64,000 bases of DNA from Amoebophrya sp. A120 (Eukaryota > Protista > Dinoflagellata). This document shows positions 12,350-52,305 of the stretch, piece by piece. Under the pieces are notes generated by a model, which had not been told where the DNA came from, ran no database searches, and worked only from the letters and a program-made list of their open reading frames with translations. The DNA lies in assembly GCA_905178155.1 (NCBI GenBank), contig CAJINV010000005.1, positions 501,319 through 565,318 on the forward strand, written 5' to 3'. A program made the translations under genes and the position numbers. The stretch's first letter is position 1, and each line of letters begins with the position of its first letter.

Positions 12350-12619
12350 TATCCTGCGTAAAATCGTGGTAACCACAGCCGAGTTGACATGATTCTCATC
12401 GTGTTTCGAAGTCTAATGAGGAGGTTGGGAACTACAAAGCCGATTCGTTGTGACGTGGCTGCAATAGCTGACCACGAGGACCATCTATACCGAAAGTTGT
12501 CATGCAAGACTAGTACCAGGCCTCCTTCTGCTTGAACTTGACTTGTGTAAATAGCGAACTTTGTCCCAACGTCTTGACTTTATAGCGTCTTGGGGAGGTT
12601 GTAGTTTTTACACAGGATA
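12350..12619. mobile_element. IR-introner, family H-like (270 bp)
   Basis: Ends TATCCTGCGTAAAA / TTTTTACACAGGATA; TSD aactg/cactg. Confidence 0.75.
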
Positions 12620-12684: not shown

Positions 12685-15600
12685 TCACCGGACCTTCTCA
12701 ATCCCTGCGACGACGAGACTTGCCTTCCCAGATATCGGCGTATTGGCTGTCTCAGCTGCCGTATGAACTGCAAAAGTATCGCACTCGTATAAATGCATTA
12801 CAAATTTACGCAGCATGAGAAATTAAATTTGTCATGCGGATTTGCCTTAAGACAAAGATTTGTAATGCAAGACTTGCATTTATACGAATACGATACTTTT
12901 GCACAGGATATGCCGCCCGGATCCCCGCTCCGATCAAAACTCCGGTCCCGGGCCAGGGTATCCTGTGCAAAAGTATCGTACTCCTAGTAATTGCAATCAT
13001 GCATTACAAATTTTTATCTCAAGGCAAATCCGCATGACAAATCTTATTTTTCATGCTGAGGGAATTTGTCATGAATTTCTACGAGTACGATACTTTTGCA
13101 CAGGATACAGGGTTTGATCCGGCAAAAGTAAGGCAAGATAAAACTGGCGCAGATGTTGAGAATCGTACATCCGAGCTTCACCCCGGTACAGGCAATCCCA
13201 ACCGTGGCGCAAGTGGTCCCCTCTGCACAGCAGGCAGCGCAACAGGCGCCTCCGCCAGTGGAAGCCGCACAGCATCCGGGAATTGCACAGGATTCACAGG
13301 ATGCAGCACAACACACGACAAAACAAGGACACAATACGGCCCCCTCCGTCAGCGTGATGATCAGGAACGTAATAGTGAAAATGCCGAGGCCTATACTCAG
13401 CCATATCCTGTTCAAGAACGCACCCTCCCGACTTGACATGCACATTTGTATGCCCCTACTGGTGTCGTGTTTCCCGTGGCCTCCGTGAGAGAGGTACTTT
13501 TTCGTCCGTCACGTTCACTGGTGTCATACTCAATTTATAGGATTATGTGTACCAAGTGGCTCACGGATGCGGAGCCATCCGCTCGCAAATACGACTCATC
13601 TGTATCTTCTTCAGGCGTAAATCCTAAAACTTCTGGATTTGTCTTGGCAAATCATATTTTTATTTTTGTCCTTACCTTGAGACTATGGGGGGTGTAAGTT
13701 TTTACACAGAATAAGCCAGATCTGCCATGGCGGCTTCATCGGCTCGACGACATTTGGTTGCTCAGGTTTCCGTATGCATTTCAATAGTATAATTGCACTG
13801 GAAAACGAAATAAAGAACTTTTCATGACAATTTTTTTCAAGGAAGAACGTCATGCATTTTCAGGTGAAAAAACTGAAACAAACCTGTCATGCACAGACAT
13901 GCAAGAAGATAGGTTTCTGTACGACTCGTACGAGCGCGATCATACTTTTGCATCGAGGATATTCCACCACTTCCACACCAACTGCTTGGCAAATGGAGTT
14001 CTCAAATGTTACATTCTCAACACGAATTCGTAATGCAAGAACGGCAAAAGTGAATGGGGGAAGCTTGCGCCTTCTGCATTACAGATTTGGCACAGATTTA
14101 GATGCCGTTTAGCCCCTTCGGAGATTTGTCATGCGAAGCAGCTTAATGGTGGCGATCTTGGTGGTAGATTTCCATGACAAATCATGTAACAGTTGAGAAT
14201 GCAACATTTGAGAATCCCATATGGCACCACCACCTTTCGGGTGAAAAAGTGATTGAATGTAGGCTGTATGCATTGCAAAAATGTCTGGGAGGTCTGAATG
14301 ATGATCGCAAGTTCATTATACGTGTCTTCCCCGACTCTTAATCCAAAAAGTAGAGCCTCTTGCCTGTCTGTCATGCACAAACACAGTATACCCGGCATTA
14401 ACTTAAACACGAGACGAAACGCATAGGTGCTCAAAATAAACTTGTTATGTTGATTGGCTGCGTAGTGCGTACTATTGCGGTGGGGTGCACCCAGCATTGT
14501 TCAAAAATCATAACTTACTTGGTAGCGTCACAAGTTTCCAGACCCAGACAGGTTTGGAGTGGATAACCGTCGCCCGCTTGGCGGGCCTCGTCCCAATCCC
14601 TTTTAAGACCTTTTTTGCCAGTTTTTGGTTGGTCCTATCCTGTGCAAAAGTATCGCACTCGTAGTAATGGCAGTCATGCATTTTTTTTTAAAGGTACATC
14701 CGCATTTACAAAGTTTATTTCTCATGCTGAGGAAGTCGAAATTTGTAATGCATTTAAACGAGTACGAATACGATACTTTTGCACTGCATAGGTCCTCTAG
14801 AAGTACCATGTACCCCTCCTCCTCTATCCCAAAAAAAAAGTTGGAAGGGCATATTTGTAATGCAAAAATAAATACACAGAAAAATCTGTCATGGGCGGCC
14901 TCATTCATAGCGATAGCATGCTATTTAGGATATGCAATACAAATTTTTTTGTCTATGTATTTTTGCATTACAAATATGACCTGCCAGTTCCTTTCTGTGT
15001 GATATCCTCGTCCCATTCATCCACGCTTTCCACCCACTCCCACTTCTCCCATTTCTTTTCTTTCGGGTTCCACAACCAGCGATATGAGAGTGCACAACTC
15101 GACGTCCTCCCCCTGACTACATAAATGCAGCTTTTGCAAGACATCAAGTTCGTGAACGGTTCTAGTCTTGTTTCGGCTTCCGGAACCTGTCATGCATGCA
15201 GTGCCAAAGGAAAAGGGTGGTGTTCTTGCAAATGAGGCTGAGTGACATAGTTGTGGTTGTGCACTCTCATAAGCCATCTTCGCCCCCGCCACGTTCCTCG
15301 TACCACTGATACATCGTCAGTCTGGGTTGCGCCTTCTTTCTCTCCTTTTTCTTTTTTTTCTCTATCTTTTTTGACGTCGGTTTGGGTTTTTCCTCTGTCG
15401 TGGAAGTGAACAGGGACAGAAACGAAGAAAACGCAGATTCCTCCTCGTTGGACGAGTTTTCTTCTGCGGAGGTGGCGGAATTTTCCCCCGAGCTTGATGT
15501 GTCCTCTTCGTCCAGCATGAAGCTGCCCATGGACTCAGATTCCTTCACTTTCTTGTTGACGTACTTATCCAAGGAAAATAAAACTGTGCTGCGTAGCGCA

Positions 15601-28229: not shown

Positions 28230-31200
28230 TTAATCAGAGACACCGGAACAGCTCGTCCCCGAAGCGCGAGAGCATACCACGACGATCTCTACTAATTCGC
28301 CAAGCCATTCACCTTCAAGAATGCTTTCTCCTGCATTTTTCTTCGCTGCTCCGCTGCCATGCGCATCCTGCTTTCTAGCGTCGTGTCCATGTTGTTTCCC
28401 GCAGCACTCTATCAAATGCAAAAATGTCTGTGTCTGGAAGATTGCTAGTCCGGCGTGACTTTGAGCTCTGTATTGCGTGGCGGCAAAGGGCTTCTCTTCC
28501 CTGTCATGCAAAAACGCAGTTTCTCATGCGGAGTACGCAACTCTGAACCACGGAAAAACTTGTCATGCTTGGCAGTGCTTTACAGTATGCGCATTTTTCC
28601 CTGACTTGCATCACAAGTTTCCAGACCCAGACATTTTTGCAATCCATACACTCTGTACCGACTGCCGGCGCAACTGATTGAAGCCCCGCGAGATGACAGA
28701 AGACGTCACCGACTGTTGAGCAGAACTGTCTGCGTAAAACGGAAGCTGAGGCGTTTGGTCGTTGCTGTTCTTCAAAACAGAAGGACCTGGTTGAGGAAAA
28801 GGACTTTGATAGGAAGAGGTCGTGCTGTGGAAGTTTTGCTGGGCTTGGTGTGCTGGCGGAAGTTGTTGGACACCGTCGTTGTAGGAAGCATGTTGCACCA
28901 CGCCTGCATGAGGATTCGACGGGGGAGCAGCAGCCGTCCACTGAGGTGCGGGCTGAACAGCAAACTGGGGCTGCGTTTGCTGTGGGATCGCAAACTGTAC
29001 CGGATGGTGTGGCTGAAATTGCTGCTGTTGCGGTGCGGTGGTAAATTGCGGAACAGAAGGAGCTGCAGTGCCCTGTCGGGTAAAATGCGGGCCACCCCCG
29101 GAAAGAACTTGCTGCGGCGGCATGGAATGATGATTATACGCAGAAGGGTACGGTTGCGGCTGAGAAACCGAAACCTGTATCACCGGTTGAGGGGCAGCCT
29201 GCTGTTGCTGAGGAAACGCGGCAGAAGAGGGCTGCGACTGACTGACCGGCTGCTGGTACGCAAACGCAGAGTGCTGCACTTGCGTAGGGTGCGCGAGCTG
29301 ACTCGGAGCTGCGGGCGCGGAATGAGAGTGTTGCACAGGTCGTGGGAGATATGATGTGGTGTCGCGCTGGGCCGATCCGCCTCTGGTACTTCCTTGTTGA
29401 AACGAATACGGAGCATGTTGATGTTCCCCTGGTAACCACGATGACAGCCGAACGCCCCCCGGCGGAGCAGATCGCTCCTGTGCGCGCGCTGGGCGAGAAG
29501 AGACGAACTCAGCAAACCGACCGACAGAAGAAGCGCGAGAGTTTCTTCCGGATGTGAGGCCACCGACGGTTGCAATACCTTTGATACATAGATGCAGAAT
29601 CGTGAGGAATTCATCACATACACTAGAAGTATCGAACGCAGATATTATCGCTCACCCTCAAAGTTCTACAGAAATCTTTCAAACTACTGCTTTTCAAATC
29701 TTCTTCGTGGTAGAAGACCGGTTTTGTCAGACGCAAATTACCCATGAAGAAGTGTCTCGCCCATGCCCACACACTAGATGTGGTAGGCGCGGTAGTGACA
29801 AAATCTAGGTGTCATCCTGGTGTGCCATACAAATTTTCGCTCGGAAAGTTGAATGACAATGAGCACAAAGGAACTACAAACCGACACTTTCCAACAGATC
29901 AAGAGCAACTCACACACACAATCAAGCAGGGATCAGTACTTGACAGATCGTGCTGACTCAGGCCTCCACCGCCGTTGCCACCGACACTTCTGCTGCCTGC
30001 GACGGAGGATGCCGCAGAGGAGAAGAACTTGCGGCAGGTCTCGGAAAGTTCTGTCTGCAGCTCTATGTTGTCGGACACCATTTTCTCCGAGTACTTGCTC
30101 TGCACCGCCAATTTGCTCTCGATCCGCATGCGGTTTCGCCGCTCCCGCTGTTTTAACGAATTTTCAACGATGGCGGAACTATGAAAACGATCTTTTTTGA
30201 AATCAGAAGTTCGCTCTGGCTCTCGTTCTTGTGCAGCATTTGCACTAATTGCAACTTGTCATTGGTAGAAGCTATGTATAGATTTGTCGCACGCACGAAA
30301 AGTCGTAAACACTAAACCATAGGTCCTTAAGGACGGTGAAGTGTTTTGACCAGATTTACTTTTCGCCTTTTGAAAATTAGCAGTGCAGCCCTTTATTTTA
30401 GCACGGTATACTATCAAACTCTGGCTCATGAATAAACGGAGCGCAGTGCTAGCGAACCCGTGCGGATGATGTAAGCGGATCATGTGGTACGTCTACGTTA
30501 ACAGACCACTAACTGTCATCTGGAAAACAGCTGCATCACGAAAATGATCAATACCTGGATTTCCATTTTGGCTGCGCGGATTTCCTCGTGCAGCTCGTAC
30601 TTTTCATTTTCGGAATAGAGCTGCATACGGACCAGCTCCTCAGCCAGCACGTTGTTCTCTTTTTCGAGGACCTTTGCGGGTAGAATTTACATAGTTTGCG
30701 TTTGAGTACAATTTCTAGAATTTCTGATCCCATCATTCTACATCTACTCAACAGCTGCACTGAATCTAAATTTGAAAGATCCCATGATCTTCTCGTTCAT
30801 GTTCAATTTACGCTAATGGTGGTGCTCGAACTGATAACAAAGCAAAAGGAAAATAGGCCGGCTTACCGCAATGTCCAGCGGGTCCGTACCATCGGCTTGT
30901 GAGGCGGACGCGCTTGGACCAAGTCTACCAGACGAGCCCTGCAGTCGTAAATGAAATGAAATTTATGCTAGACCATTTCGTGTGCTCGTGCTTCTGCACC
31001 TCTTTGCTCGTACAGTTACACCGCCAGATCTTTGGAAAAAAGCATGAGTGAAAACTGAAGACGGGAGTCATCTCTGATGTACCCTGTACGTATGGAAAGC
31101 GTTCTTGCGAATACCTGTGACCCCGTCCGGCCCATATTATCCCGGACGTGCGCGCCTCGCGCTCTTCTTGGGGGCATTGCTCCGTTCTCTGTGCTTGGCG

Positions 31201-34200: not shown

Positions 34201-37124
34201 CAAACAAAACCGGTTTATGTTGCAGTTTTCCGCGATTCAACATCGCTACCCTCGTACGCTTGTCCACCGGACTCTCGCCTGCTTGCTCCAAGAAGTCGGA
34301 GATGTCCTGCGCCTCGGCCTCGTAGTCGTCGAGACTCTGGTCGGGGATGAAATTCCCATTGACTTCTTCGTCAAACAACTGCGTAATCCCGCCCATCAAA
34401 CTGTTCATTCCCGGCCCGTGACCTCTGGAAGACCCGTAGGCGCTGTTGTTGTGAAACGCGGAGGTGTTGGAGAGTAACTCGTTGTGGCTACGGTCGCTGC
34501 TCATGGGGATGGCGTAGTTGCTGTTTCTACTGCGATTGAGATTGTGGCCCCCGCTGGTGTTCAGATTGTTATTTGTATTTCCTCGGTGAAACGAGGACCT
34601 GGACGGCGCCGAGCTCGCGTTGGATGTGTTGAGGAAATTCTCCTGGGAATGGGACAGCACGTAGTTGTTGATACTATTCTGCTGGCTGTTGTTCAACCCA
34701 CTGGCATAATTGCCTTGTGCACCAGCGGCTGCTCTTTTCGGGGGCGGCGGCGGCACTGCGTTGAACACGATTTCCGGGCTGGCGGCATTGGAACTCGACG
34801 CGCCACTTGTTCTCTGCGACGACATCAAATTACTGCTATTTCCATTGCTTCTCTGATCCACCAGGATCTCCACGTCTTGCGGCGGGATATTCACAACCAC
34901 AGAGTTTCCCGGGCAGAATGATTCGTTCGCCGCCGTGCTACTCACCACGCTCGCGTTCGCTGCGTCGGGCGTACCGATGTAGAAATGTTGCTGGGCGGCA
35001 CCAGCTTGCTGGCTGTTGTGGGAGTTATTTTGCTCCTGTTGCATTGGGGTTTCGACTGATGTCGTTGCTGACAGTGGCTGGACACGAACGACGCCTGCTT
35101 CCGTGATTACCGCAGCCGGAACCGCGATATTGTGGTCCGACGCGCTAGTACCGGCCTGCTCATCGCTTGTGGATGGGATGGTGGTGGAAGCTTCTTCAGG
35201 CACTTTTTGCTTCTTGATCAACAGATGAGCGGTGTTGCTCTGCTGCAGCTGCTGCTGTATTTGTATCGGTTCAGCCGGCTGAGGGTACAATGCAGACCCG
35301 CCTGGAGGTCCTCGGGGCTGGAAAATTGCGTTGGTACCTCCGAGCAAAGGTTCGTCCTGGTCCACGACTTCGACATCTTGGAAGGGGGTGGTTGCACTTG
35401 CAGCTCCTGAAGCTGGTGCACCAGCTCCCGTTGAAAGAGGAATAACAGGGCCAGGTCCACCACCAGCATTTGATGTTGCACCTTCCTGCGACAGCGTATG
35501 CAGCAACGGCGGCGTGCCCTCCTCCACGTCATTACCCGGAGCAAGGTTGTGCGACGACTGCGACCCTCCGGTGTTTGGTGACCAGTCTTCCCCATTCGTC
35601 TTCCGGTATTTATCGCCCACGAAGTCCGACTCCTTCGCGCGGAAGGGGAGAGGGAGTTTGGGCATGGCAACGCCGGCAGAGTTGGCTCCGGGCGTTCTCG
35701 CACCGGAATTGGATATTGTTGCTCCGGGACTGTTGTTCGGTAACAGGTCCAGCCTCTGCTTTGTCAGCCGCATAGTTGCTGCCATGACTGCCTCATTCTT
35801 CTCCTCCGCAGACAACCGCAGGTCGTCTGGGATCTGCACATTCTGCATCGAAGAGGTCACGGACGAGGGATTGCTGGTCGTCGTGTTATTAACCCGCATG
35901 ATATCAAATGCAAATATGTCTGGGTCTGGAAGAATGCGAGCTCTGTGTCTGTCATGCAGTTTTTGCCTGGCCAAGAAGATCGTGTGGCATGCAAGCTCTA
36001 GCGTCACAGATGTTGAGCAGGTACCCGAATGCCTAATCCGCATGACAAATCCCTTCTTTCGGTAACAAGAGCTGAGGCCTTTTGCTAGCCATGCATGACA
36101 GATTTTGTCATGCTGTAGCCTTCGCATCACAAATTCGAACTCTTCCAGACCCAGACATCCTTGCGTTTGGTACATGGGGCGCAGCATCTGACTGGATGCG
36201 GTGGACGACCCAAAGTCGAGCTTCGACGGGATGTTGCTCACCTCCTCTAACGGGTTTTTCAGGCTGGAGTTCGAAAAATCGTCGTTGCCAACTGTGGAAA
36301 CGGAAAACCGCAGTTCGTCACCCTCGAGGCCTGCTATTCCCGAGATTCCGGTGCTGTAATTGTAGCTTGATGTTCCTGGTGGTGCAGCCCCGCTTCGTCT
36401 CTGCATTAAACCCGCTAACCCCCCGCCGGCACTAGAGCTGGATGAGCTGGGTCTTGGCGGGCTCGGGGACACGAGATTTCCGTCGAAGTTTGACCCAATC
36501 AGCTCCTCGGTGGAGGTGCAGCGCGCGACGGTGCGCGAATTCGGGTAGGTGATAACGTTAGCTGCATTTCCTTCGTGTCTCTCCGGCGCCGTCATTGTGC
36601 TGCAGGCCGAGGCGGAAGAGACCCGGGGAGGTGGGGGGCCGGCAAATTTTGCGGAGGACGCTATGGATTCCGGCATAGACGCGAGGGAGGATCGGAGTAA
36701 CTTGTCCTTGTCTTCCGCCTTCGCGCCGCGTCTTCGGTCCGGGGATTGGGATGTGGGCGGGGAGGAGGAGGTAAAGTTACTGTTCCGCAGCTGCTTGCTC
36801 GGAGAGGACGAGGGGTCACCTGTGTTTTGGTTTGATGAAATCTTCATGCGACAGGTGTACTTTTACTACCAGCACGTACAGCAAATCTCTGGCTGTCATT
36901 TCACATAGTACCCACGTGGAAGAGTTTTTACGCAAAGAATTCACACGTAACAATTGAATACGTCCAAGATTCCCCACGTTTTCCGTGAATTCGGAAACCG
37001 CCTGGCGCAGGCGCATCATGTGGTCTGGCATCTGTTCGCCGGAAGATTTCCGCCCCGCAATCTGCGGCATCTTCTCGAGTTTCTTGGGCGAAAGCGACTT
37101 ACTTGGCGAGTAGTCTGACGGCAT
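28230..37124 (-). CDS. Large Gln/Ser/Asn-rich low-complexity protein with a coiled-coil segment; multi-exon, 3 introners
   Basis: ORFs 36816..37322 (ATG at 37124), 33989..36847, 31016..32875, 29899..30129 and 28611..29336. The junctions at the three introners restore the frame. Other junctions and the 3' end were not fully resolved, so this may be more than one gene. Confidence 0.65.
28410..28648. mobile_element. IR-introner family C (239 bp)
   Basis: Ends TATCAAATGCAAAAATGTCTGTGTCTGGAA / TTCCAGACCCAGACATTTTTGCAATCCATA; TSD cactc/cactc. Confidence 0.93.
32876..34064. mobile_element. Large (1.19 kb) IR-introner with GC-rich internal cargo
   Basis: TIR of about 65 bp: CGTTAGCATGAGAAGTGGTGAATTTGTAGTGAATTT / AAATTCACTGCAAATTCACCACTCTGTATGCTAACG. 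TSD gacaa/aacaa. Removal joins QDHEQL|SGNFILG. Confidence 0.85.
34066..34162 (-). repeat. 78-bp exonic tandem duplication (QDHEQLSGNFILGDATANNSTLPSSI twice); the second copy is split by the 1.19-kb element
   Basis: CTGGATGCTGCTCGGCAAGG…GCCAGACAATTGC is identical at 32810..32879 and 34082..34151. Confidence 0.88.
35902..36172. mobile_element. IR-introner family C (271 bp), stop-free and in frame
   Basis: Family C TIRs; TSD catga/catgg. Element plus TSD = 276 nt and is read through by ORF 33989..36847. Confidence 0.92.
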
Positions 37125-37947: not shown

Positions 37948-40900
37948 TCAGCGTTCCGTGCCGCTTCCCCGCATGTTTCCCGGTCGTCTTTCCGCTCCGA
38001 CCTCCCTCACATGGGCATTGCGGGCCTCGTTCTTCGTCTCCAGCGCCGACGACCCCGCGACGGCTGCACTTGGTAGTTTCGCAGCGACGGAGCCTCCGAG
38101 CGTTGCGACGCCAGGCGCATGCACACCGACACCAAACCGCATTTCGGCCCCGGCCCCGCCCGCCGCTTCCGCTCCATCAGATTTTTGCGCCATGTTTTGG
38201 TCCCCCGCCGGCAGACACGCTTTTCTCTGTGCGTTCCAGGCACAGTCGTCCCGATCACTGCACTCAAACTCGTCCTCGTTGAAGTGTTCGCAGTTGATGG
38301 GAGCATCCGGATCCCCGGCACAGTCGTCCCCGCCGACACAGAAAGACCCGAGGCTCCCACCATAGCTTTGTCCTCTGTGTTCCGACTTTGGTGGCTCCTG
38401 CTCTGCCTGCTGCAGCAGTGCCGACGACATGCCGCTTGTCGTGCTCGCGGCTGCAGGAGAAGATCCTGAACCTGAAGATCCACCGGCGCGCAATTGCAGT
38501 TGGGATGATTGTTCGGAGTGCTCTCCCGACGAGTGAGAGGACTTGAACCCGTCCCCGGCCACTTCGTCGGTCTCCGGTCGTTCGCCCCGCTCCTTGGCCA
38601 GGATTTTTTCCGCCCGGCCCTGCATTTTCGGCACGACGGAGAGGTCGTCCTGAATCCACTCGGATTCCGGAATCGCGGGGATTCGTTCGTTTTGCAAGAC
38701 CTCGCCGTATTTTGCCACGTCGTACATGTAGGTGTAACGCCAGTCCTGCACCGTTTCCTCCACCCGCCCGTCGAAGTACACGTTCTGCGGGCCCCACCCG
38801 GACAGAACGATCGCGGGCTCCTGGAATTTTATCCCGGTTTTTTCCGCCTCATTCCTATCCAAGAAAAAAACTGTGTTAGTGTAACTTTCTTTGGCTGACA
38901 GCATCACAAATTTGCTCTACACGACAGAGAAAACCTGTTATGCGTGGCTTGTAAGGGAAAATACACATGAAAAAGGGACTTCATGGCTGTGTGGCATGAC
39001 AAGCGTAACTCTGTTGCATGTTCTGCATTACAGAGTTACACTTACACAGTTTTTTTCTTGCATAATTCCACGGCGACCGGTAGCACTTGCACCCGTAGGT
39101 GTTCCCAAAGTGGGCGTCGACCGGCTGCGGGTGGTTCGGCACCGGCACCGGGGCGGAGTAGTACGACTTCCGAAAAAACGCGTCCACCGGTTCGTAGTTG
39201 TCCACCAGGTAAACCCCCGGTCCCTCGTTCGCGGCGGTGGCTTGTTCGGATTTGCGCTTCAGGGTGGCCATCAGCACCCCGGGAAACTGCGCGCGCGCGC
39301 CATGCTTGAACCACCGGAACTTTTCCAGTTCGCCCTTCGTCGCCCGGGACTTTTTGCTGCTGTAGTCAAAGGTGATGGACTCCCAGCTCGCGTCCGCTAT
39401 CATGATCTTTTTCAGGAAAAAATCGAAGTCCCCCGCCTGGATGTCGGCATCCTCCCCGTACAGGTTGGACCCGTCCGTGGGGTGCAGCCCCGTCGGCGTC
39501 GCTTGGGCGAACACCCCCGGCCATAGTCGGGGGAGGTACTTGCTGTTCGATTTCCCCTTCGTGTTGTACATGCGTTGTGACAAGTCGAAGAACCGGGAGA
39601 TGGCGGAGGCGCAGGCTCCATGCCCCCGCGACTCCTTCGCGACCTGGACCTCCCAGAAGTAGCCGGATTTCAAGAGGTCTTTCGGTTCGGACACGCCGTA
39701 GGGGTGCTGCCACACCCCGGTCCAAACGGAGGTGCGGGTGGCGGCGTGAACCATGAAACTGTACAGCGTGACGGCAGAACCTGAGTGGTTTAGTGTGTGC
39801 AAAGTGTGACGGAACCGGAACTGAAGAGGCGCAACTGCCAGAGATGAATGTCAATGCTAAATGATTTCTGTATCATGATCCAACTGCATCACAAGAAGAC
39901 ATTATCTATCAAAAGAACTGAATCTACCGAAAAACTTCGCCTCCAAGTGCTTTTTGAACTTCTCCTTTTCCTGCACTCCGTCCCTCAATGCCGGACGCCA
40001 GTGGTGCGCGTGGGGAAACTCATCCGGGTCGGCATGCGACCAGGTGGTCACGTCGTACACCTTCTCAAAGTGCCCCCACACCAGCGGGCTCTCCTCGTAG
40101 TGCTTTGCCCAGAACATGTCGTAGCACTCGTCCCAGGCCCTTCTCCCCTCCACGCTGTCTTCGAAGGGCAGCATGTACACCCAATAGTCCTCGCCGTCTT
40201 TGATCCCCTGCACGGTTTCGCCCTCGCACGTGAAGCGCAGGGCATCGTCGGCTTCGTTGAGAGGTAGGTTTGCCTTCTCCTCCGGAGTCTGGGAAAACCG
40301 CTTTCCCGCCTTCGGCCAGGCGGAGATCGGTGTGCCGGGGGGCAGGTTGACCGCCGGGGCGGGGGGTGGGGCCTCTTGCCTGTCAAAGAGATATTCAACA
40401 TATTTGGGACGTAGTCTGTGCCTAGGCATAAAAAGCTACATAAAGCGGGCATGACAACAAGCTTAATTTACAAGAAGGACCAGATCACGCGACAGATTTT
40501 TATTGAGTAAACGCAAGTATCAATTAAAAATACGTTTTCGGTTTCTCCGTTGTCTCCTTCGTTTCGGTGATTTCTTTCACGCCCGGCACCACCGGAGATT
40601 TCTCCGGCACCGGTGGCGCCCCGATTTCCGGCGCTTCCGGCTGCATTGCTACTTGCGTCGTTTGCTTCTTCTTCAGCGCGTGCGGTGGCTCGGGTGTCGA
40701 CAAAGGTTCGGCCTCTGCCGGGGACAGCGAAGTCGTTTCCGTTGGCGTTGTTTTCATCACGTGTGGTGGCTTGTGTGGACCTCCCACACGGTACATGGTT
40801 TTGTAGACGCAAACGACAATCAAGAACAGGCAAAACACGACGAAGGCTTGGCCCTTCCAGGAGGAAAATATTTTCTTTCGGACATTGTGCACCAGTGCCG

Positions 40901-41234
40901 CGCTGTTGTTCACGTTTACCGGGGGGTTTTCCGGAAAGGACGCATTGGGGTCACCGCCGCTCAGCGTCGTGTTGTTAAAGGAGGACGTTGTGATGTTGAT
41001 GATCTTGTTCGTCTCCAGTTGGCCCGTTTTGGAGAAGAAGGACGAATTTGCAGGGGCGCCCCCGTTGCTCTCGGTTTTAGACGCATTACCTCCATGCGGC
41101 GTCAAATCATCGGTATAGTCAACAAGCATGGACGAATTCTCCATGTTATTGCTGTCGAGGGATCGCGAGCGGGCCGCCCGGGACACGGAGGACGATGCCC
41201 CGTAAGACCCATCGTTCGGGTGTTTGTACGACAT
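37948..41234 (-). CDS. Type II membrane protein with a luminal domain and a C-terminal Cys-rich module; at least 4 exons
   Basis: ORFs 40524..41234 (TM AFVVFCLFLIVVCVY), 39902..40429, 38981..39802 and 37948..38907 (CVGGDDC…C…CSDRDDCAW…C). Introner removal joins SPWN|EAEK. Confidence 0.7.
38856..39064. mobile_element. IR-introner family D (209 bp)
   Basis: Family D TIRs; TSD attcc/attcc. Confidence 0.94.
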
Positions 41235-42424: not shown

Positions 42425-45400
42425 TCAAAATTGCCAATCCAAATCACTCCGCCCGAGGAGTTCCCTGACCCACGGCGCTGGCGGCACCGGGTACACCTCG
42501 TCGTCCCCGAAAATGTCGCCCTGGAACCTCGCACAAAAGTCGGGCAGCATCTATGGGATTCTCAAACGTTACATTCTCAACTGTTACATGGATTTGTCAT
42601 GCAAAACTACCTTAAGCTGCCAGATGGTCAAGCTGCTTCGCATGACAAATCTGCGAGGGGCTAGACAGCACCTAAATCTGTGCGGAACTTGTAATGCAAA
42701 AGGCGCAAGCTTTGCTCTTTCATCTTTGCCGTTCTTGCATTACAAGTTCACGTAACAGTTGAGAATGTAACGTTTGAGAACGCCATAGCATCTGCGGGCC
42801 GGACAGGGAGTCCCGCATCGGCGGAACGCCGGAGGCGATCTGTTGCTGCGATTGGAACAAATACTCCATCTCGCCCAACTCCGCCGACGAAGAACTGATC
42901 GCGGTTTCTTTCGAGCCAAACGCCGACGTTGCGATGGACATGGAGCCGGGAGCTTCCAGGCAGAATCTTCTTTGCTTCACGGCTAACACGTCCAGGTCGT
43001 CCCGGATCCCCTCGAGCTGCTCCCGGACCCTCATGCAGGTCTCCGGCGAAGCTTTTTGGTGCAAAGTCAAGTACCCCCGTTGCTTCATGGAAGTTTCCGC
43101 CTTCTGCATCTCCTTGCGCGCCACGTCAAACATGCGCTTGTCGAAGTAGAGCACGCCGAGGCGGTAGTGCAGTTCCGGTTTTTTGGCCTCGTTTCGGGGG
43201 AAGGCCAGCTGATCCTCAAGTTTTTGCTCGCGGAATTTAGCGCCCTCGTGCACGACCTGCATCTTGTCCAGCACGTCGATTAGGCCCGTCATGGGGAGCC
43301 CGAAGTTTTCTGTTCAGTGCATATTTGTTGTTCCATGTCGTCAAATTATTTGCTTTCAAATGGGACGAGAGACTGCAGCAAAACACGCGAATTGAATGAG
43401 AGAGTACGAACAACACGACTGAAAAGATGAATCAGTACTGAGAATCGTTATCGCGTTTTCGCATTCCTTGATCGCCAGTGTCGCTTTCCCCTTGTCCCAA
43501 TACCTTAATGAGAGGTTGTAGTGGCTGACGAATCTCAGCATCCCTTTTACAGGCTTTTCCTTCAAGAACGCCCTCTCGACGAAGTTCAGCCGGTTCTGCG
43601 CGTTCGCATCTTGCGGCTTGATGCGCAGCGCCTCTTTGTATTCGCGGACGGCGAGGGTGTACTCTGTTTTAGATCATGATGATGAATGGTCGAGTTCGTT
43701 ACCTCTCGTCTTTGTCGGCAAGACGGAAGTGGAGAGACGGCAGCTGGGGACGGTGTGCCGCTCCTGCTGCTGTGCCTACCAAAATCATAGCATGCTTTCA
43801 AGAGATTGTAGCTAGAATAGTACCTTGCTTCATCTCATGCTTTTCTGCCTTCAGGTAGTGCTGCTCGTACATCTGGTCTTTTCGCTTCTCCCTCGCTGTG
43901 GCCGGCTCCTCATCTCCCTTCCTCTCCCCCGTTGCAGTACCATCCTGCTCTCCACCTGCAGTTTTCGCTACAACTACTTTTCCGCCGGCTAGATCCAGCG
44001 GTGGTGGCAAAAACACTTGCGCGTTTCCGGTCTGCTCGCTTGATTTCTGTTCTCCGAACTTCCCAAACGCCAGCGCGAAAGGGTCTTCGTCCTCGCTGCT
44101 CGACTTGTTTTTCGCAGTGCCCCCCGTGCCGGCCTTCGCTGCGTCGGCCTCGGACCGGGCCGAGGACAGTTGGGACTTTTGCTTTGACGCTGCGGTATCG
44201 CTGTTCTTCGAAGTTTTTTTAGCTTTACTTCCTTGCTCTCCACCTGTTGCCGCGTCCTTCTCCTGCAACGCTTGGGCTTCCAAGATCTTCGCAACGAACT
44301 TCGCGCAGTCGTCTAGCAGGTTCTTCTTCACCTTATCCACCCTTGATTGCGCCGATTTCGACAGATTCAATTTTCGCATGCGCTTCTCCAGATCCGTGAG
44401 GAACTCCGTCGAGGCAGCCGCTTCACTCGATCTTGATTTCATCGACCCCTTCCCACTTCCGCCAGCGCTTTGCGGTCGTTTTTTCTTGGTGGACAGCATC
44501 GGGATGCTATCGAGGTCGGCTGCGATCAATTCTTTGCTGTTTCGAAGTCTCGCAGAGGGGGACAGGTCCTTGTCATTGATTTTCTTAAATTTACTCGCGG
44601 ACAAGCTGCGCTGCCTGCTGGTCGCGTTGGTGGACGCGGGTTTCGCAGACGCCGGGCGAGATTTGCTCCTCGCGTCACCGGGGGAGGAAAGCTTCCCCGT
44701 GGAGGCGGTACCGGTACCTGGGTAGATAAAATTCAATGTAGGAGTTGGGAAGTGTTTTAATTTATGTGCGCAAGCGCATCTAGTGCATGCTAGATGAAAT
44801 TACTTTCGTTTTATTTCGATGTCATACGTGAGCAAGCGTTGCAGCCCCTCGTACCTGTCTTCATCTCCTTCGCCTTTGGCGTGATTACGATTTGCGGTTC
44901 TATCAGATTTCCATAATCGTCAAACCACTGCGCAGTGTCGGAAATGAATTCCGCGCGCTCCTCCGCCGCACTTGTCGAGCACATCACCTGCAGCGGTCCA
45001 TATTTCACCTTTTTCCGCTGTTGGCCTGCCGAATTGGTTCCAGATGGCCCCCCTCGTGGCGACGGTGAAGCGGAAAGCATGGTGGTTTGATCCACGATCA
45101 TGTCGGGCGATGCGGGCGCACTTGCGTCTCCGTCCAACAGAACTCGTCGCTCGGAGAAAGTCCACTTTTTCGTACTTGCGTCGTAGCTTAGCATCACCTT
45201 TCGTGTCGCGTGCTGGTACCATCTTTTGTGCTGCGGCTTCTTCTTGGGGTCGGTCGCGGGAATTACCTTCTCCTTGTAGTGATAGGTGCCCTCGACGCGG
45301 GCATTCCCGGTGACAGCGACGTCGTAGGTGACGAGGGACCTGATTCGGTTTATTTGCTGCAAATCAAAAAAAAGCTGAAATGTGGTTCGGAAACAGCATG

Positions 45401-46900
45401 ACAAAGGAAGAGGAACGAATGCGCATGGCATTTTGCAAGGGATAGAGAACAAACTACCACCAAAGCACGTTATACTTGTTTGAGATCTTCTTTTTCAGCA
45501 AGTATTTGCGGAGATCCTTCTTCACCTCTGCGCTCTGAGGAGGCCAGCTCATCGTGTCCGATAGCGGCGCTTCGATGTATTGCTGTGCAGTGCGTTTTTG
45601 ATTTGAAAATTGCGCCAGACTCTTTTCTTGTCATTTTTCAGAGAGAAGCATGAGGTTCGTGGCGCAGCACAAAACTGACATAAAATATCCAGCCCTGATA
45701 CCTTGAGTTTCCCGGGCTGCAGGCCCTTTTGTGCCGGTGTCCTGACTTTGAAATCCAGCAGCTTCCCTCGATCCTTCACGTCATCACCAGGCTTGTCTGG
45801 CACAGCTGCCGCTGCTGTGACGACTCCACCAACGCTGACGGACGAAGACACCGGCTGCAGGGTCATGGCTGATGAAGAAGATGCAACTGCGCTCGCGCCA
45901 CCGGCGACAACGCCGGACGAAGGGACACTCGCTAATCCACTTCCCGGCGGAGCCACCATTATAGCACTGGTGGATGACGACGCAGGCGCCGAGCCCACAA
46001 CTGGTGTAGCTTTTGCAATACCGACGCTCCCTCCATAGTTGTTCATTTTCCCTGGTGGTAAGTAGCTCGGCGCCGTGACGCTGCTGCTGCTACCTGCATA
46101 GGGGTTTGTGGCGGTAGATCCGGCGTACGTGTAGGAGCTTGTCGTCACACTCGCCGTAGCTCCCGCTGACATGCTCGGTGGCCGGTAAACGGAAGGTGCG
46201 GGCGTGGAGGAGGCCGAAGCAGTGCCTCCTGGTATTATCTCCTCTGGAATTGCATCCAAAGAGGAACTGCCGGCAGCAGCTGGCGGTGCCGGTGCGGCTG
46301 CCGCCGTGTATGCCGACGGTGGCGGCGGTGCCGCGTAGGTGGACGCTGTGATTGCGCCAGGTGTGTACGACGAACCGGTTGCTGGTTTGTAAATCGATGA
46401 GGACGAAGATGACGATGTTCCTGCGCTCCCATAGCCCCCTGCTGTGAAGGACGTGCTACCTCCAGTCGCTGAGGAAGCATAATTACCAACTGAAGAAGCT
46501 GTTGCCGTAATGCCGCCGGGTCTGTACCCAGTTGTGATCCCACTTACGCTAGGAACAGATGCAGAACTTGAAGCCGCGGGGCGAAGTCCGGTGAGGCCGC
46601 TGGTGTAGGAAGTTGGGCCGGAAGTTGATGAAGACGAGGCGGATCCGCTGGGAGTAGCTGTTGTGGCAAGATTCGTATTTTCTTCAGATTGAAATAAACA
46701 TAAACAAAGCCGATTGCAGATTCATATCAATGTGAAAGAAAAATGTAGTGACGTATTTGACTTTGTGAATGATCAACGGACTACTTCGCAAGTGCTACAA
46801 CACAAGATTGTCGAGCAGTACGCTTTGCAAGGCTTCCCGCGAGGCCTCCAGGCATTCCGCTCAAGGAGGATCCACCGGGAGGTCCCAGCCCACTGGGAAT
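42425..46900 (-). CDS. Multi-exon protein with a Ser/Ala-rich N-terminus and C-terminal TPR-like helices
   Basis: ORFs 45549..46259, 44811..45452, 43798..44736, 43356..43565 and 42720..43292 (PELHYRLGVLYFDKRMFDVARKEMQKA). Introner removal gives GPQM|LPDF…DWQF*, stop at 42425. The 5' end is approximate. Confidence 0.65.
42552..42787. mobile_element. IR-introner family B (236 bp)
   Basis: Ends TATGGGATTCTCAAACGTTACATTCTCAACTGTTAC / GTAACAGTTGAGAATGTAACGTTTGAGAACGCCATA; TSD gcatc/gcatc. Confidence 0.95.
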
Positions 46901-47701
46901 GCTACTTGTGAAGTTTTTCTTCATCGTTTTGTCCTTTTAGACAAGTAGTTTGAAACTCCACTACAGCTCTACGCCGACATTCCGAACGAAAATTATCAGG
47001 AGGGCCTCTTCATCTGCAAGCCATTTTTTTGTCAGGACTTCATCTGCGACGATTTGGCTCACTTATTCTCGCTTGAAAGCTGCAACATAAACGTCACACA
47101 CGAAGACGATGAGGATGATAAGAAAGGAGAAAAAATAAAAGAACCTTTCTCATCAACGACACCTCACGTCATCGGCTCCCTGCCTTTACCTCCTCTCGAT
47201 TTACCAGCCACAATTTTGCACTCCACGACCTCATTTCAATCTCAAAATGCCAAACCTCTCGCCACTCACAACACGTGAGCACCCCAACACCTCATTGTCT
47301 CATTCAAAGTTTGCTCGCATTCGTTGCCTTGAAGTTCAAGCCTGGCCATGTTGCTCAGACTTGCAGCGACATTCCGTTGCTTTTATACAGCAGAGAGAAC
47401 AAGAACCTTGTGTACAAGATGCACCAGAGGTGGAGGCCAATGACTGAACAACACCGCTCCGGGCGCTGCGCTGCCACCTGTGTGAGCGCGGCAACCTCGG
47501 TCTACTTACTTCTGAAGCCAAACTGGTGGGGCCGAGCGAGCGAGGGGCAAGAAGCAGGCTGCGCCCGTCCGAACGAAAACTGACGGCGCGCCCCTCCTCT
47601 GATCGGGCAACGCCCAGCCGCAATTGTGCGCGGGCGCCGCACACACACACACGGCCACCAAGCGGGGCCAGCGGGGCCAGGCCGTTGCACGGCCGACAAA
47701 C

Positions 47702-50700
47702 AATAGCAGAAGAGTTTATAGAATCCCGGGTCCCAGGGTAGGGAGGACCAGGGAGGGGATTTTGCTATATAAAACCGAAAACCGAAAACCGAAAAATCAT
47801 AAAAACCCCAATCGCGGCGGTATGATGCTCTTTAACAATTTGCGCGAGTTTTCCATGCGGAATATACTCAATCTCCATGGTAGTGCGATGTCGGGAATGC
47901 GGCGACAAAAGACAAAGCTATAAGGCGACGCGATGGCAGAGGCAAAGCTACCCTACAAACGGACCGCGCAAAGCTTTTCAAAAATATTTCAACAATAAAT
48001 TTCCAGCACATACACAAAGTTTGCCCCTGATCCACATCCAACCGCCCCGGGCTTTGGACTGTTTTCTCCCCCGCGGGTTAGGCACCCTGCCCGCATTAGT
48101 TCCAAGGTCTTTACTCCCGTGCCACGCCGTCATGACTAAATAATGGCTATGCCTATTGAGTAATGTTCTGCAGGACACGGCGGCGCGGCGACCGATAAAG
48201 GAAAAGCAAGACCAAGACCCACGGCCCCTCTGGACCCGAACTACGCGAGAGGGCCCAGAGAAAGCCGCGCGCGGCAGGCCGGGCACGGCCCGCCCGGCTG
48301 TCACAACGGTGCCCATAGCATGGGCGCGCACATGGGGTGGATGCCCGGGCCGAGGCCCACTGCCGCCCAACTTTTGGCGGGCCCCACCCCTGCTCTTTTT
48401 GCCAGTCTCCTCATTAGGGCGGCGGCATGCAGCTTCTCTGCTCCATCCTTCCTCGGGCCCTCGCCGGCAGTTCGGCCGCCGAGCTGGTTTGCCTGCGTGG
48501 GTGCGTGCCCACCGCCATTGCGACCGACCGGGCGAAGTCAGTCAGTCCAGTGGGCAAAATAAGTGGCGCCACCCTTCCTGCGGGCCCCTTCGCCCACGCA
48601 CGCCTGTCCTGGGGCCGGCCCCTTTTTCGTGCCCGCCCGCGCGGGCGGGGCGCGCCACGCAGGCAGTTTCTGGCTAGGGCGCGGGCGGTACACCCGCACG
48701 CCGAGTGCGTGGGACACACGCACGGGCCGGGCAATACAAGGAGCGAAGGCCCGGGGCCCCCGGCGAAATGGACGGGCGCGCGCCGGGGCGGACGGAGGCG
48801 GGCCAACAGGCCGCCTGGCTGCCCCGAAGCACAAGGCCGGCCAAAAGACTGCCATGGGGCGGCGCGGAGGGCAGGGCAGAAGCGAAAGCCGCCGGGGCGG
48901 GCTCGGACGGCAAAGGGCAGACTGGCCCGCCTCCCTGGCCGCGCTCTGCGGCGCACCCTTTCCCCGGGGCGGGCCAACGCCTCCAATATGCGGGCGCGCC
49001 TCCCGTGCGGCGGGCCCGGGCAGACGCACCAACGCGGAGGCCGCAAGGCGGGCCCCCCCGTTCTTCTTTTTTCTGGAAAAACTGGAAAGAGCACGGCAGG
49101 GGCCTCCCGAATATCTCCCCGAAGCCTTCCCAAAATTTTCCAAAGCCAATAGAATGAAAAGCCAACGCAGAAAACACCCGGCGCCCCCTTGAAATACTTT
49201 CTTTCGGAAGCACTCACTGCGCTGGGCCGCGGCGGGCCAAAGCCGCCCGGAGCCATTCCGGACCCCATCCCCAGCGAGCATAGCTACAAAAGAAGCCCGC
49301 GCCTATGCCGGGGCGGGAATGGAACACCACCAGCCCCCCTAGCCCGCCCGAATGAAATAGCCGCCGGGGCCTTGGGGCGACCGCGGGCGGTCGCTCGGGT
49401 TGGGCCGGGCGCTGCGCACAAGGCCGCGGAGGCCAGAGAGACGCTTGCCGCTTGCGGCCGGCCGCAAGAAGCCTCCGGGCTTCGCGCGCAAAAGCCAGCG
49501 GGCGCCGGGCCCCCGGCGCGCGGCTGTTCTTTCACTCTGCAACAAAAAACCGGCGGGGGGGCCTGGCCCGGGCAACTTCTAACGACCCACCCAAAGGGCG
49601 GCGCGGCCCACCCGGGGTGGCGCAGGGGCCAAAGCCCGGGCCCAGTCAAAAGCTAGCGCAGGGGGGGCCTTAGCCCCCGCCCCCGAGTTGCTTCGCCCGC
49701 GATCGCCAAAGAGCCGCAATACCCTACAGCACCAACGGACGCACCCACTGGCGCCGCGGCAAGGTCAGCGGGAGGTATTTGCGTGCGCCCGCTGCCATCC
49801 TGGCTCCTGGGCCAAGTCGCCTCCCCGCCGGCCTGCCATTTTGCCCGGTCGCGGGCGACCTCACTCGCGGGACGGACCTCCCGAAGGCTGGCCTGCAAAA
49901 ACCGCGCGGGGCCCCGCCTTGCCACAACGCCCCCGCCCCGCGCTGCTCTGCCAACATCGCGCGCGCGGGGCGCTGGTGACCCCAAAAGGGCCACCGACAC
50001 AACAAAGGGAGCGGGCGCCCCTGGGCATGGCGAAAAGCGCAAGACCCACGAAGGGCAGCCCTTTCGGTGTTTGTACTTAGTGCCAGGCGGCTCCAAATAA
50101 AATTGGGCCCGGCGGCGCGCCACGCCGGAGTGTCTTCCCAATGCCAAACGCGACGCGAGCTGGGCAGCCGAGGACACGGCACGCACAAACGGCGCCCCGG
50201 CTGGCGGGCAACAGACACGCCAAGAGCTTGGGGCTTTGGAAACTTTTTGGAAAGTGGGTGGGGAACTTGCGCTACCTAACAGGGGTCGCCACTTGTGCGC
50301 CCCTTGCTCTGCGCCATGCTCTACGAACAGAGAGCGCGTCTGGATTCAGCTCCCGGGAGCGAAGTCCAGCCTTCCTCCCTCGGACCCAACTCCCGGCGAA
50401 AACTGCACGGCGGCGCGACTTTTGGCGCCTGAGTTTTATGGCTATGGCGCTCGCCTGCGTGGCAGCTTGCCAAAGTCAACGGCTGGCAAGCTGTAGCGCA
50501 CAAATGAGGCTGAGGGGCCAAGGAAGTGCGAAGCTGTTGAAGTGGCTTTCTCAACTCTCAGTAGCTTTATTCTCCTTCGTTTCTGCGTTACAAATGCAGA
50601 AATGAAGGACAAAAGAAACGCGAAGAGCTTTCTCCTGTCCTTCGTTTCTGCGTTACAAATTGCCATCATGATTGGCAAGCTGTAGCGCAGAAATGAAGGG

Positions 50701-52305
50701 CAAACTATTGAAGTGGCTACTCCAACTGTCCTCCATCGGAAGAAAGTTGAAAAAGTAGCCACTTCGATAACAACTGCATGACAAATTGCCACAGTAGTGG
50801 CAGTTGTTGAAATTGAACAACAACGCAAACGCGTTCAAATTATAGCCACTGCAGCAAGAATTATCTGTGTTGTTGTTCAGTTTGCAACTTGTCACGCAGC
50901 TTTTGATGAAGTGGCCACTTCAACTCTCCACCAGAGTGTCGTGAGCAGCTGCGCGACACGTTGCAAACTGAAGCTGGACAACGACGCCAATTGTTGAAGT
51001 GGCTATGTCAACAATTTGCGTCGTGTGCGAGCAAAAATTGTGAAAGTGGCCACTTCAGCAGTTCGGGTTCTGCGAATTGTTGAAGTGGCCACTTCAGCAA
51101 TTCGGGTTGTGCAAAATGTTGAAATGGCCACTTCAACAAAACCCGAATTGCTGAAGTGGCCACTTCAACACTTTGCACAATTATTTCAACAATTTGCACA
51201 ACGCAAATTGTTGAAATAGCCATTTCAACAATTTGCACAACCCAAATTGTTGAAGTGGCCACTTCAACAATTTGGGTTGTGCAAAGTGTTGAAATGGCCA
51301 TTTCAACAATTCGGGTTCTGCGAATTGTTGAAATGGCCACTTCAACAATTCGGGTTCTGCGAATTGTTGAAGTGGCCAGTTCAACAATTCGGGTTGTGCA
51401 AAATGTTGAAATGGCCACTTCAACAATTCGGGTTCTGCGAATTGTTGAAGTGGCCACTTCAACAATTCGGGTTGTGCAAAATGTTGAAATGGCCATTTCA
51501 ACAATTCGGGTTCTGCGAATTGTTGAAATGGCCACTTCAACAGTTCGGGTTGTGCAAAGTGTTGAAATGGCCATTTCAACAATTCGGGTTCTGCGAATTG
51601 TTGAAATAATTCGGGTCGTGCAAAATGTTGAAATGGCCATTTCAACAATTGCAATTTAGGGTTTTGTTGAAATGGCCATTTCAACACTTTGCACAGCCCG
51701 AATTTTTGAAATCATGGCCACTTCAACAATTCGCAGAACCCGAATTGTTGAAGTGGCCACTTTCGCAATTTTTGTTCAATTTCAATAAATTGTCACTATT
51801 GTGGCAATTTGTCATGCGCTTGCTATTCAAATGGCTACCTCAACTCTCCGCGAAGTTGAAGTAGCCACTTCAACACAAGCTGCGTGACACGTTGCAAACC
51901 CAAGCCGAACAACAACAAGAACGCAAATTGTTGAAGTGACTACTTCAAAAATTTGCACAGCGCAAGTTTTTGAAGTGGCAACTTCAACAGTTTGCCTGTG
52001 CGAATTGAAGTAGCCACCTCCATAACAACTGCGTGACAAGTTGTAAACTGAACAACAACGCAAACTGTTGAAGTGGCTACTTCAGCAATTTACTGCGTCG
52101 CTGTTCAATTTCGTCACGCAGTTGTTATTGGTATGGCTATCAGAAAGCTGAAGGGGCCTTGGCTTGAAAGTTCGCCATGCCATCGGTGAACACATTTTTA
52201 AAAAATGCCCGATGCTTTTTCTATATAGACGCGAACGCTCCTCCCTGGTCCTCCCTGGTCCTCCAGGGTCCTCCCTACTCCCTGTCTATAAATTTCTCTG
52301 CAATA
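47702..52305 (+). mobile_element. 4.6-kb TIR-bounded DNA transposon with a GC-degenerate hAT-like transposase remnant and a palindromic array
   Basis: Left end: AATAGCAGAAGAGTTTATAGA…GTAGGGAGGACCAGGGAGG…CTATATA. Reverse complement of the right end: TATTGCAGAGAAATTTATAGA…GTAGGGAGGACC…GGACCAGGGAGG…CTATATA. Flanks gacaa(ac)/gacac. Plus-strand peptides VRCRECGDK, TAIATDRAKSV…GPFAHARL and PGNTRS. Confidence 0.7.
50990..51770. repeat. 39-bp palindromic minisatellite (about 20 units); degenerate copies extend ~50650-52135
   Basis: Unit = 28-bp palindrome AATTGTTGAAGTGGCCACTTCAACAATT plus an 11-bp linker, CGGGTTCTGCG or CGGGTTGTGCA. A 13-aa periodicity (LLKWPFQQFAEPE) appears in the ORF track on both strands. 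Confidence 0.95.

What the first reader, a model, noticed from the sequence alone, without database searches (positions are those of the whole stretch)
12762..51817. Shared internal motif GCATNACA / TGTNATGC across all unrelated introner families and the 4.6-kb element
Seen: families with different TIRs all carry several copies of this octamer on both strands. Family A: 12795 GCATTACA, 12830 TGTCATGC. Family B: 17842, 17889, 17984. Family C: 18243, 18259, 18291. Family D: 20972, 20990. It also occurs in E, F and G, and in the arms flanking the palindromic array (50776 GCATGACA, 51810 TGTCATGC). It appears rare in exons by eye. Inference: a strand-symmetric cis-signal for one trans factor, either a transposase binding site or a recognition/branch element for the non-canonical splicing machinery. 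Presence on both strands would explain orientation-independent splicing. I am not aware of this motif having been described.
Basis: partly seen in the sequence, partly recalled or inferred. Interest (0 to 1): 0.85.

Follow-up and report, generated by a model that had tools for sequence, protein, structure and literature searches.

The report
Helically spaced code inside jumping introns
The small mobile introns of an Amoebophrya-type marine parasite nearly all carry one short DNA word at fixed, helix-turn spacings from their ends, which likely marks where the still unknown enzyme that copies them around the genome binds, rather than a splicing signal.

Summary
The motif is real. All 12 quoted sites are correct. 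The window has 90 copies against 8 expected, and 79 lie in 30 inverted-repeat introns (11.7/kb against 0.19/kb elsewhere). It recurs in 309 of 319 elements of a related genome.

Two corrections. The word is longer (GCATBACARRT). The families share one terminal signature (TAT-N7-AAA, 5-bp duplication), as published for Amoebophrya A120 introners, although their interiors are unalignable.

New here is a spacing grammar. Tandem sites lie 31-33 bp apart in 10 of 11 independent lineages, and first sites lie 33-34 or 41-45 bp from the end. The core is four times better conserved than its flanks, most strongly on internal branches.

An obligatory RNA splicing signal is unlikely. There is no strand bias to the transcript (255 against 264). 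Five of 8 excised elements lack a sense copy and two lack any exact copy.

Best reading: subterminal DNA sites for the mobilising transposase (about 0.55) or a host cofactor (0.2). No transposase was found; binding is inferred.

The parts
6321..6588 (.). Family C element, 2 exact sites
   Evidence: excised as 273 = 268+5 nt
6646..6924 (.). Family E1 element; all 5 exact sites antisense to the transcript; 31-33 bp tandem pairs
10389..10544 (.). Old element: terminal repeat 21/30 kept, no motif, still excised
12350..12619 (.). Degenerate element, 1 site
12762..12910 (.). Family A element; sites 12795+, 12830-, 12861-; duplication TGCCG
12959..13107 (.). Family A element, 2 exact sites 31 bp apart
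13404..13713 (.). Element with no exact motif (one weak variant), still excised
13773..13961 (.). Degenerate element, 1 site
13992..14221 (.). Family B element, 2 exact + 2 variant sites
14267..14565 (.). Degenerate C-like element, 1 exact site, no matching duplication (boundaries uncertain)
14636..14790 (.). Family A element, 1 exact site
14825..15004 (.). Family F element, 2 exact + 2 variant sites
15083..15271 (.). Family G element, 1 site
15566..15830 (.). Degenerate element, no motif
17391..17635 (.). Family B element, 3 exact sites
17799..18034 (.). Family B element, 4 sites, the outer ones 44 bp from each end
18078..18340 (.). Family C element, 4 exact sites
19092..19239 (.). Family A element, 3 sites
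19429..19591 (.). Family A element, 3 sites
19628..19864 (.). Family B element, 4 sites
19904..20080 (.). Family A element, 4 sites
20927..21135 (.). Family D element, 5 sites
   Evidence: (table 8)
22546..22694 (.). Family A element, 3 sites
22751..23061 (.). Family E4 element, 2 exact + 4 variant sites
28410..28648 (.). Family C element, 3 sites
32880..34065 (.). 1,186-bp inverted-repeat element with an apparent 8-bp duplication; 3 variant sites near the ends, two of them 32 bp apart
35902..36172 (.). Family C element, 5 sites
38856..39064 (.). Family D element, 4 sites
42552..42787 (.). Family B element, 4 sites; excised as 241 = 236+5 nt
47702..52305 (.). 4.6-kb repeat, about 6-8 copies per genome; right end TAT-N7-AAA; no Pfam transposase; 39-bp palindromic array; 7 sites or variants at 50585-52031, including 50776 and 51810
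60715..61028 (.). Family E4 element, 1 exact + 5 variant sites
61084..61339 (.). Family C element, 6 sites
9901..9908 (+). Lone site in a canonical GT-AG intron
10914..10927 (.). Overlapping pair of sites in a canonical intron
45396..45403 (+). Lone site in a canonical intron

Best explanation
GCATBACARRT is a conserved, helically spaced word near the ends of one superfamily of non-coding TAT...ATA introners, and it likely works on double-stranded DNA as the subterminal binding site of the transposase that copies them. Shown: enrichment, shared ends and 5-bp duplication, excess conservation, spacing, strand indifference, and exact excision without the motif. Inferred: a sequence-specific protein binds 2-6 sites per element; sites 31-33 bp apart (three turns) and 33-34 or 41-45 bp from the end (one turn apart) put the protomers on one face of the helix to assemble and pair the ends; copies that lose sites stop spreading but stay spliceable. 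Also inferred: the enzyme is integrase-like (TA..TA ends, 5-bp duplication) and encoded elsewhere, and splicing relies on pairing of the terminal repeats rather than on the motif.
For: Geometry: tandem 31-33 bp pairs in 10 of 11 unalignable lineages (null 1.7); '+ then -' at 34-36 bp in 5 of 11 (null 0.8); '- then +' at 46-48 bp in 5 of 11 (null 0.7); first site 33-49 bp from the end at 21 of 22 ends. Outward-pointing first sites peak at 33-34 (89 ends) and 41-45 (279 ends), with 7 ends at 38-40. Spacers are only 31% identical across families. Conservation: core mismatch 4.6% against 18-20% in flanks and at the N position, and 9.5% in the terminal repeats, in 12 of 12 families; 44 of 52 consensus sites are in the top 10% of interior windows. 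Core/other substitution ratio is 0.15 on internal branches and 0.40 on terminal branches, odds ratio 0.38, p=2e-11. Singleton variants in the youngest class are not depleted (38/2464 against 57/4306). Multi-copy families hold more sites than singletons, 1.77 against 1.16 per 100 bp. Strand: 255 against 264 in 169 elements, and no family significantly biased in orientation. Excision: 8 of 8 displayed element joints skip element + 5 nt; 5 of 8 have no sense copy and 2 of 8 no exact copy. Precedents: Herves subterminal 8-mer (PMC3143072, passages); helical spacing of TnsB sites (PMC10201428, passages).
Against: No transposase was found: none in 24 ORFs of the 4.6-kb element and the 56-58 kb region, or in the 100 longest of 181 ORFs from the second assembly. 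Farhat et al. report none in A120 and argue against general transposase mobilisation. Terminal branches still show ratio 0.40; the short-tip class gave 0.57 (12/594 against 40/1128, p=0.10) and the family-stratified duplication-mismatch effect is modest (odds ratio 1.3 for core against 1.09 for other), so constraint after insertion is not excluded. 3 of 13 canonical introns carry a site (4 exact against 0.35 expected). A 1,186-bp element with an apparent 8-bp duplication has variant sites 32 bp apart, which fits a factor shared across transposases. Site orientation relative to the end differs among families, and family B lacks the 31-33 pair. The contigs show that excision occurs, not how efficiently.
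Confidence: 0.55

Rival explanations
1. The site is bound on DNA by a host-encoded sequence-specific or architectural protein that transposons of more than one type have co-opted to assemble their ends, as IHF does for Tn7-like CASTs.
For: It predicts the same geometry, strand indifference and lineage-level conservation. The word is the same across families whose terminal repeats differ beyond base 15. Variant sites occur in the 1,186-bp element with an 8-bp duplication (3 or more sites in the ends, P about 1e-4) and as an internal cluster in the 4.6-kb element (6 against 0.28). No transposase is reported in A120. IHF precedent.
Against: The motif is nearly absent from unique DNA: 0.19/kb in the window and 0.27/kb in masked loci, and many of the residual clusters inspected by eye are decayed elements. 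Bases 4-14 of the terminal repeat are themselves the best, though weak, matrix match in the first 30 nt (10% of ends score above 5). The 8-bp call rests on one copy.
Confidence: 0.2
2. A host protein bound to the DNA word marks the element in chromatin and recruits the non-canonical splicing machinery during transcription, so orientation does not matter and copies with sites are retained as harmless introns.
For: Strand symmetry and helical spacing fit DNA binding. Terminal branches remain depleted, 0.40. Sites occur in 3 of 13 canonical introns. U1 snRNA was not detected in Amoebophrya.
Against: Two elements without an exact site are excised exactly, and one of them keeps 21/30 terminal pairing. 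Constraint is much stronger on internal branches. Phasing to the DNA end within a few bp suits a cleavage complex better than a recruiter (inference). 10 of 13 canonical introns have no site.
Confidence: 0.12
3. The word is read in the pre-mRNA as a branch point or protein-binding element (its UNACA end resembles a branch consensus, recalled), or serves as an internal pairing stem.
For: 81 of 169 elements have a sense copy 20-49 nt from the 3' end. Opposed copies pair in the predicted folds of 4 of 6 elements.
Against: No strand bias; 21 of 169 elements lack a sense copy; retention is equal for sense and antisense sites (262/326 against 283/342). 5 of 8 excised elements lack GCAUNACA and 3 of 8 lack UGUNAUGC. 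The N position shows no compensatory pairing (3 against 3.0, 8 against 7.4, 24 against 22.7, 5 against 3.7).
Confidence: 0.05
4. The word is a functionless relic of one ancestral element, multiplied by internal duplication.
For: All families share ends and duplication length, so common ancestry is likely.
Against: Interiors are unalignable once sites are masked, yet the core is four times better conserved than neighbouring bases and the N position drifts freely.
Confidence: 0.04

Closest known systems
Amoebophrya A120 introner elements (Farhat et al. 2021, PMC7789003; Gozashti et al. 2025, PMC12130899)
   Same: Ends TAT + 7 nt + AAA, direct repeats of about 5 bp, non-canonical junctions, lengths of 150-320 bp, co-oriented genes. 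The elements themselves are already described.
   Different: In the passages, sections and supplement text read, neither paper describes an internal motif or spacing rule. Farhat et al. argue against general transposase mobilisation, and Gozashti et al. leave most families as 'TIR DNA, unknown'.
Subterminal transposase-binding motifs of hAT elements (Herves CG/AATTCAT, PMC3143072)
   Same: A short word repeated inside both ends at roughly 15-90 bp, distinct from the terminal repeat, asymmetric between the ends.
   Different: Here the duplication is 5 bp rather than the hAT 8 bp (recalled). One word spans at least 11 unalignable lineages with fixed spacings, and binding is untested.
TnsB and IHF sites of Tn7-like CAST ends (PMC10201428)
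   Same: Multiple sites per end whose spacing follows the helical pitch; an example of a host factor site within an end.
   Different: Bacterial, longer sites, autonomous system; no homology is implied.
IS3EU/GingerRoot and Ginger2/TDD integrase-like DNA transposons (PMC10045372, PMC6839031, PMC2836005)
   Same: TA..TA termini (IS3EU/GingerRoot); 5-bp duplication (TDD-4/5). Gozashti's table files A120 fam38 as Ginger, '5-bp TSD, TA/TA Termini'.
   Different: GingerRoot has mostly 6-bp duplications and 100-150 bp terminal repeats; Ginger has TGTNR ends. No transposase was available to test.

Membership tests
Amoebophrya A120 introner elements | Inverted repeats starting TAT, 7 variable nt, then at least 3 A | tested here: met
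   A at positions 11-13 in 87-93% of 638 ends; TAT was required by the search; window ends
Amoebophrya A120 introner elements | 3-5 nt direct repeats at the junctions | tested here: met
   8 of 8 displayed RNA joints skip element + 5 nt; exact 5-bp duplication in 259 of 319, with a detector that required at least 4/5
Amoebophrya A120 introner elements | Spliced with non-canonical ends | tested here: met
   0 of 8 joints allow GT-AG; the runs are contigs guessed to be RNA, which also skip canonical introns
Subterminal transposase-binding site | Repeated near both ends and conserved in propagating lineages | tested here: met
Subterminal transposase-binding site | Bound by the cognate transposase and needed for transposition | not testable with these tools
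   no enzyme found; needs binding and transposition assays
IS3EU/GingerRoot | TA..TA termini | tested here: met
IS3EU/GingerRoot | Duplication of usually 6 bp | tested here: not met
   5 bp
IS3EU/GingerRoot | Integrase-like DDE transposase in autonomous copies | tested here: inconclusive
   no autonomous copy in the window or in about 450 kb of loci
Ginger1/Ginger2 | TGTNR termini | tested here: not met
   ends read TAT
Spliceosomal branch-point element | Sense strand of every intron, near the 3' splice site | tested here: not met
Spliceosomal branch-point element | Complementary to U2 snRNA; lariat maps to the A | not testable with these tools
   U2 alignments are figures that are not held; no raw reads of this strain at depth

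The most novel reading that the evidence does not exclude
A single host DNA-binding protein reads a phased GCATBACARRT code on mobile elements of more than one transposase type (5-bp and 8-bp duplications). It both licenses their copying and flags them in chromatin for orientation-independent, GT-AG-free excision in a lineage where U1 was not detected: a DNA-encoded intron mark shared by parasite and host.
Probability: 0.12. Interest if true: 0.92.

Novelty: new variant of a known kind. Interest (0 to 1): 0.6.

Why it matters
How the roughly 30,000 introners of A120 (17% of the assembly, PMC7789003) move is an open question; the genome paper found no transposase and no unifying family signal. 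One conserved, phased word across unalignable families implies one trans-acting factor for the whole superfamily. It supplies a ready bait (two sites 31-32 bp apart next to the terminal repeat) to catch that protein, a signature to find autonomous copies and decayed introners, and a way to separate the sequence needs of mobility from those of non-canonical splicing.

Tried and rejected
No whole genome is held for the window, so genome-wide counts were not possible.

No listed holder was on record as RNA. The raw-read runs barely covered the window: X9 had 88 partial reads, mostly on one terminal repeat; X10 had 0; X11 had 2. Intron retention could therefore not be measured.

Searches for an autonomous element found none: family-C terminal pattern in viral contigs, 0 hits; in prokaryote genomes, 1 hit with no motif; tandem-site pattern in viral contigs, 8 hits with no similarity to the element library, the two inspected looking like coding repeats; long-element scan of loci, one 834-bp nested copy; Pfam scans negative for transposases.

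A universal 10.4-bp lattice was tried. It fits (R=0.53) only with a reference point chosen after seeing the data, and not with the pseudo-palindrome axis (R about 0.1), so only the specific spacings are claimed. Motif density against terminal-repeat identity is weak (rho 0.11).

Literature searches and letter searches of two supplements (1 file; 12 of 14 files) found no description of the motif. Earlier-findings look-ups gave nothing on it.
Full report
OBSERVATION. All 12 quoted sites exist. The window has 90 matches against 8.0 expected. I catalogued 30 short TAT...ATA elements by terminal repeat and duplication (boundaries of 14267-14565 are uncertain). They hold 79 of the 90 hits in 6,751 bp. 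The enrichment survives end-masking and shuffles up to order 4, and the word ranks first among gapped octamers. The full word is GCAT[G/T/C]ACARRT, loosely preceded by pyrimidines.

ORGANISM AND ELEMENTS. No genome was held. The ends match the published A120 signature, TAT + 7 nt + at least 3 A with short direct repeats (PMC7789003, section 11), so I infer Amoebophrya A120 or a close relative; this was not shown directly. In contigs guessed to be RNA, which also skip canonical introns, 8 of 8 displayed element joints remove exactly element + 5 nt (15 of 38 and 15 of 34 joints were displayed). None of the 8 allows GT-AG. The 4.6-kb element spans about 47702-52305, has DNA depth of about 270-380 against 42-50 for unique DNA, ends in TAT-N7-AAA on the right and has no Pfam transposase hit.

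INDEPENDENT SAMPLE. A scan with the family-C terminal pattern returned 167 loci of assembly JACKZZ01, so the sample is biased to family C. One of its proteins is 93% identical to an A120 protein: a close relative, not a distant replicate. It gave 319 non-redundant elements (2 false positives in 273 kb of shuffled DNA), 309 of them with the exact word. With the window copies they form 40 clusters, 33 with the word, and 17 families of at least 4 copies. After masking sites and ends, the interiors fall into about 11 mutually unalignable lineages. The families are therefore unrelated inside but share ends and duplication length.

CONSERVATION. In the 12 families with at least 8 copies (271 copies; smaller families left out), the 7 core positions mismatch the consensus in 4.6% of cells, against 19.7% for flanks, 20.0% for the N position, 18.1% for other interior columns and 9.5% for terminal repeats. 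44 of 52 consensus sites are in the top tenth of interior windows. On trees with CpG columns excluded, the core/other ratio is 0.15 on internal and 0.40 on terminal branches, p=2e-11. This is the pattern expected if copies need the word in order to leave descendants. The evidence for free decay after insertion is mixed: singleton variants in the youngest class give ratio 1.17 (p=0.45), short tree tips give 0.57 (p=0.10), and duplication-mismatched copies show core 0.026 against 0.016, but only odds ratio 1.3 against 1.09 after stratifying by family. With so small a sample of the genome's copies, terminal branches still contain inherited changes.

GEOMETRY (new). Same-orientation sites lie 31-33 bp apart in 47 of 178 pairs against 6.8 expected, and in 10 of 11 independent lineages against 1.7, with spacers 31% identical across families. 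Opposed pairs recur at 34-36 and 46-48 bp (5 of 11 lineages each, P=0.0004). The first site is 33-49 bp from the end at 21 of 22 lineage ends and 510 of 638 element ends; outward-pointing first sites are bimodal at 33-34 and 41-45 bp. Spacing conserved without sequence, in steps of about one helical turn, points to proteins on duplex DNA (inference; precedent in PMC10201428). Orientation relative to the end varies, and family B lacks the tandem pair.

RNA TESTS. Gene strand was called for 139 of 319 elements with a coding model trained on the window (within-locus agreement 90 of 92), plus the 30 window elements. The pre-mRNA holds 255 GCAUNACA against 264 UGUNAUGC; 21 of 169 elements lack a sense copy; no family is significantly orientation-biased, though numbers per family are small. 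Site retention is the same on either strand. Among the 8 excised elements, 5 lack the sense word and 2 lack any exact copy; one of the two keeps 21 of 30 terminal pairs. The N position shows no compensation between opposed sites. An obligatory branch or RNA element is therefore unlikely, though contigs cannot measure efficiency.

RESULTS AGAINST OR COMPLICATING. No transposase was found (100 of 181 ORFs scanned), and Farhat et al. report none in A120. Three of 13 canonical introns carry a site (4 exact against 0.35; one intron's boundaries were set from contig pieces and are slightly off). In the loci, 91 residual hits remain in 334 kb after masking, and many of the 22 clusters inspected by eye are decayed elements, so relics are plausible but unproven. 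A 1,186-bp element at 32880-34065, with an apparent 8-bp duplication and a reading frame that stays open on removal, has three variant sites near its ends, two of them 32 bp apart. Its length equals one listed for A120 fam103. If the 8-bp call holds, the binding protein may be a host cofactor shared by different transposases.

MECHANISM. Most likely (0.55) the word is the subterminal binding site of a transposase supplied in trans. TA..TA ends with a 5-bp duplication suggest an integrase-like enzyme near IS3EU/GingerRoot or Ginger2, but the elements fail a defining feature of each; Gozashti's table files one A120 family as Ginger with the same ends. A host cofactor of transposition (0.2), a DNA mark for splicing (0.12), an RNA element (0.05) and a relic (0.04) follow.

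NOVELTY AND SOURCES. The elements are known, and subterminal sites are a known kind (PMC3143072). The motif and its grammar were not found in nine searches. Seen: PMC7789003 abstract, passages, sections 11 and 16, and a supplement text search (its figures, including the U2 alignments and element logos, are not held and could bear on novelty); PMC12130899 passages, section 6, a search of 12 of 14 supplement files, and 40 of 58 A120 rows; passages only of PMC2836005, PMC10045372, PMC6839031, PMC3143072, PMC10201428 and PMC11282704. Roy et al. 2023 was seen only as a reference, and subscription papers were not searchable. The branch consensus and the hAT duplication length are recalled.

VERDICT. 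Real, selected and apparently undescribed; most likely a DNA-level mobility signal rather than a splicing signal. New variant of a known kind; interest 0.6.

Noticed in passing
window 32880-34065: 1,186-bp GC-rich inverted-repeat element with an apparent 8-bp duplication, inserted in one unit of a 78-bp coding tandem duplication; removal leaves an open frame; splicing not tested.
   Followed up: partly
window 50950-52100: 39-bp palindromic tandem array inside the 4.6-kb repeat; 39 bp is also a recurring same-strand motif spacing in C-type families, possibly by chance.
   Followed up: partly
window 47702-52305: An X3 contig covers the left 700 bp of another copy, and an X6 contig joins 52299 back to 47723: a circular, tandem or assembly junction, unresolved.
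   Followed up: no
window 56000-58200: GC-rich (65-68%) stretch resembling the interiors of the two large elements, with no terminal repeat or Pfam hit found.
   Followed up: partly
window 18078-18109, run X9: A raw-read run that otherwise barely covers the window has 85 reads of a family-C terminal repeat followed by the motif, joined to foreign sequence: a retained copy at another locus or in another strain.
   Followed up: no
L035 632-1465: Family-16 element carrying a nested insertion of about 580 bp that ends in a CAT repeat; its short ORFs were listed but not searched.
   Followed up: partly
whole window: All genes examined lie on the minus strand, as in the co-oriented blocks described for Amoebophrya.
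   Followed up: no
L024 1-1080: C-5 cytosine DNA methylase domain in the second assembly.
   Followed up: no
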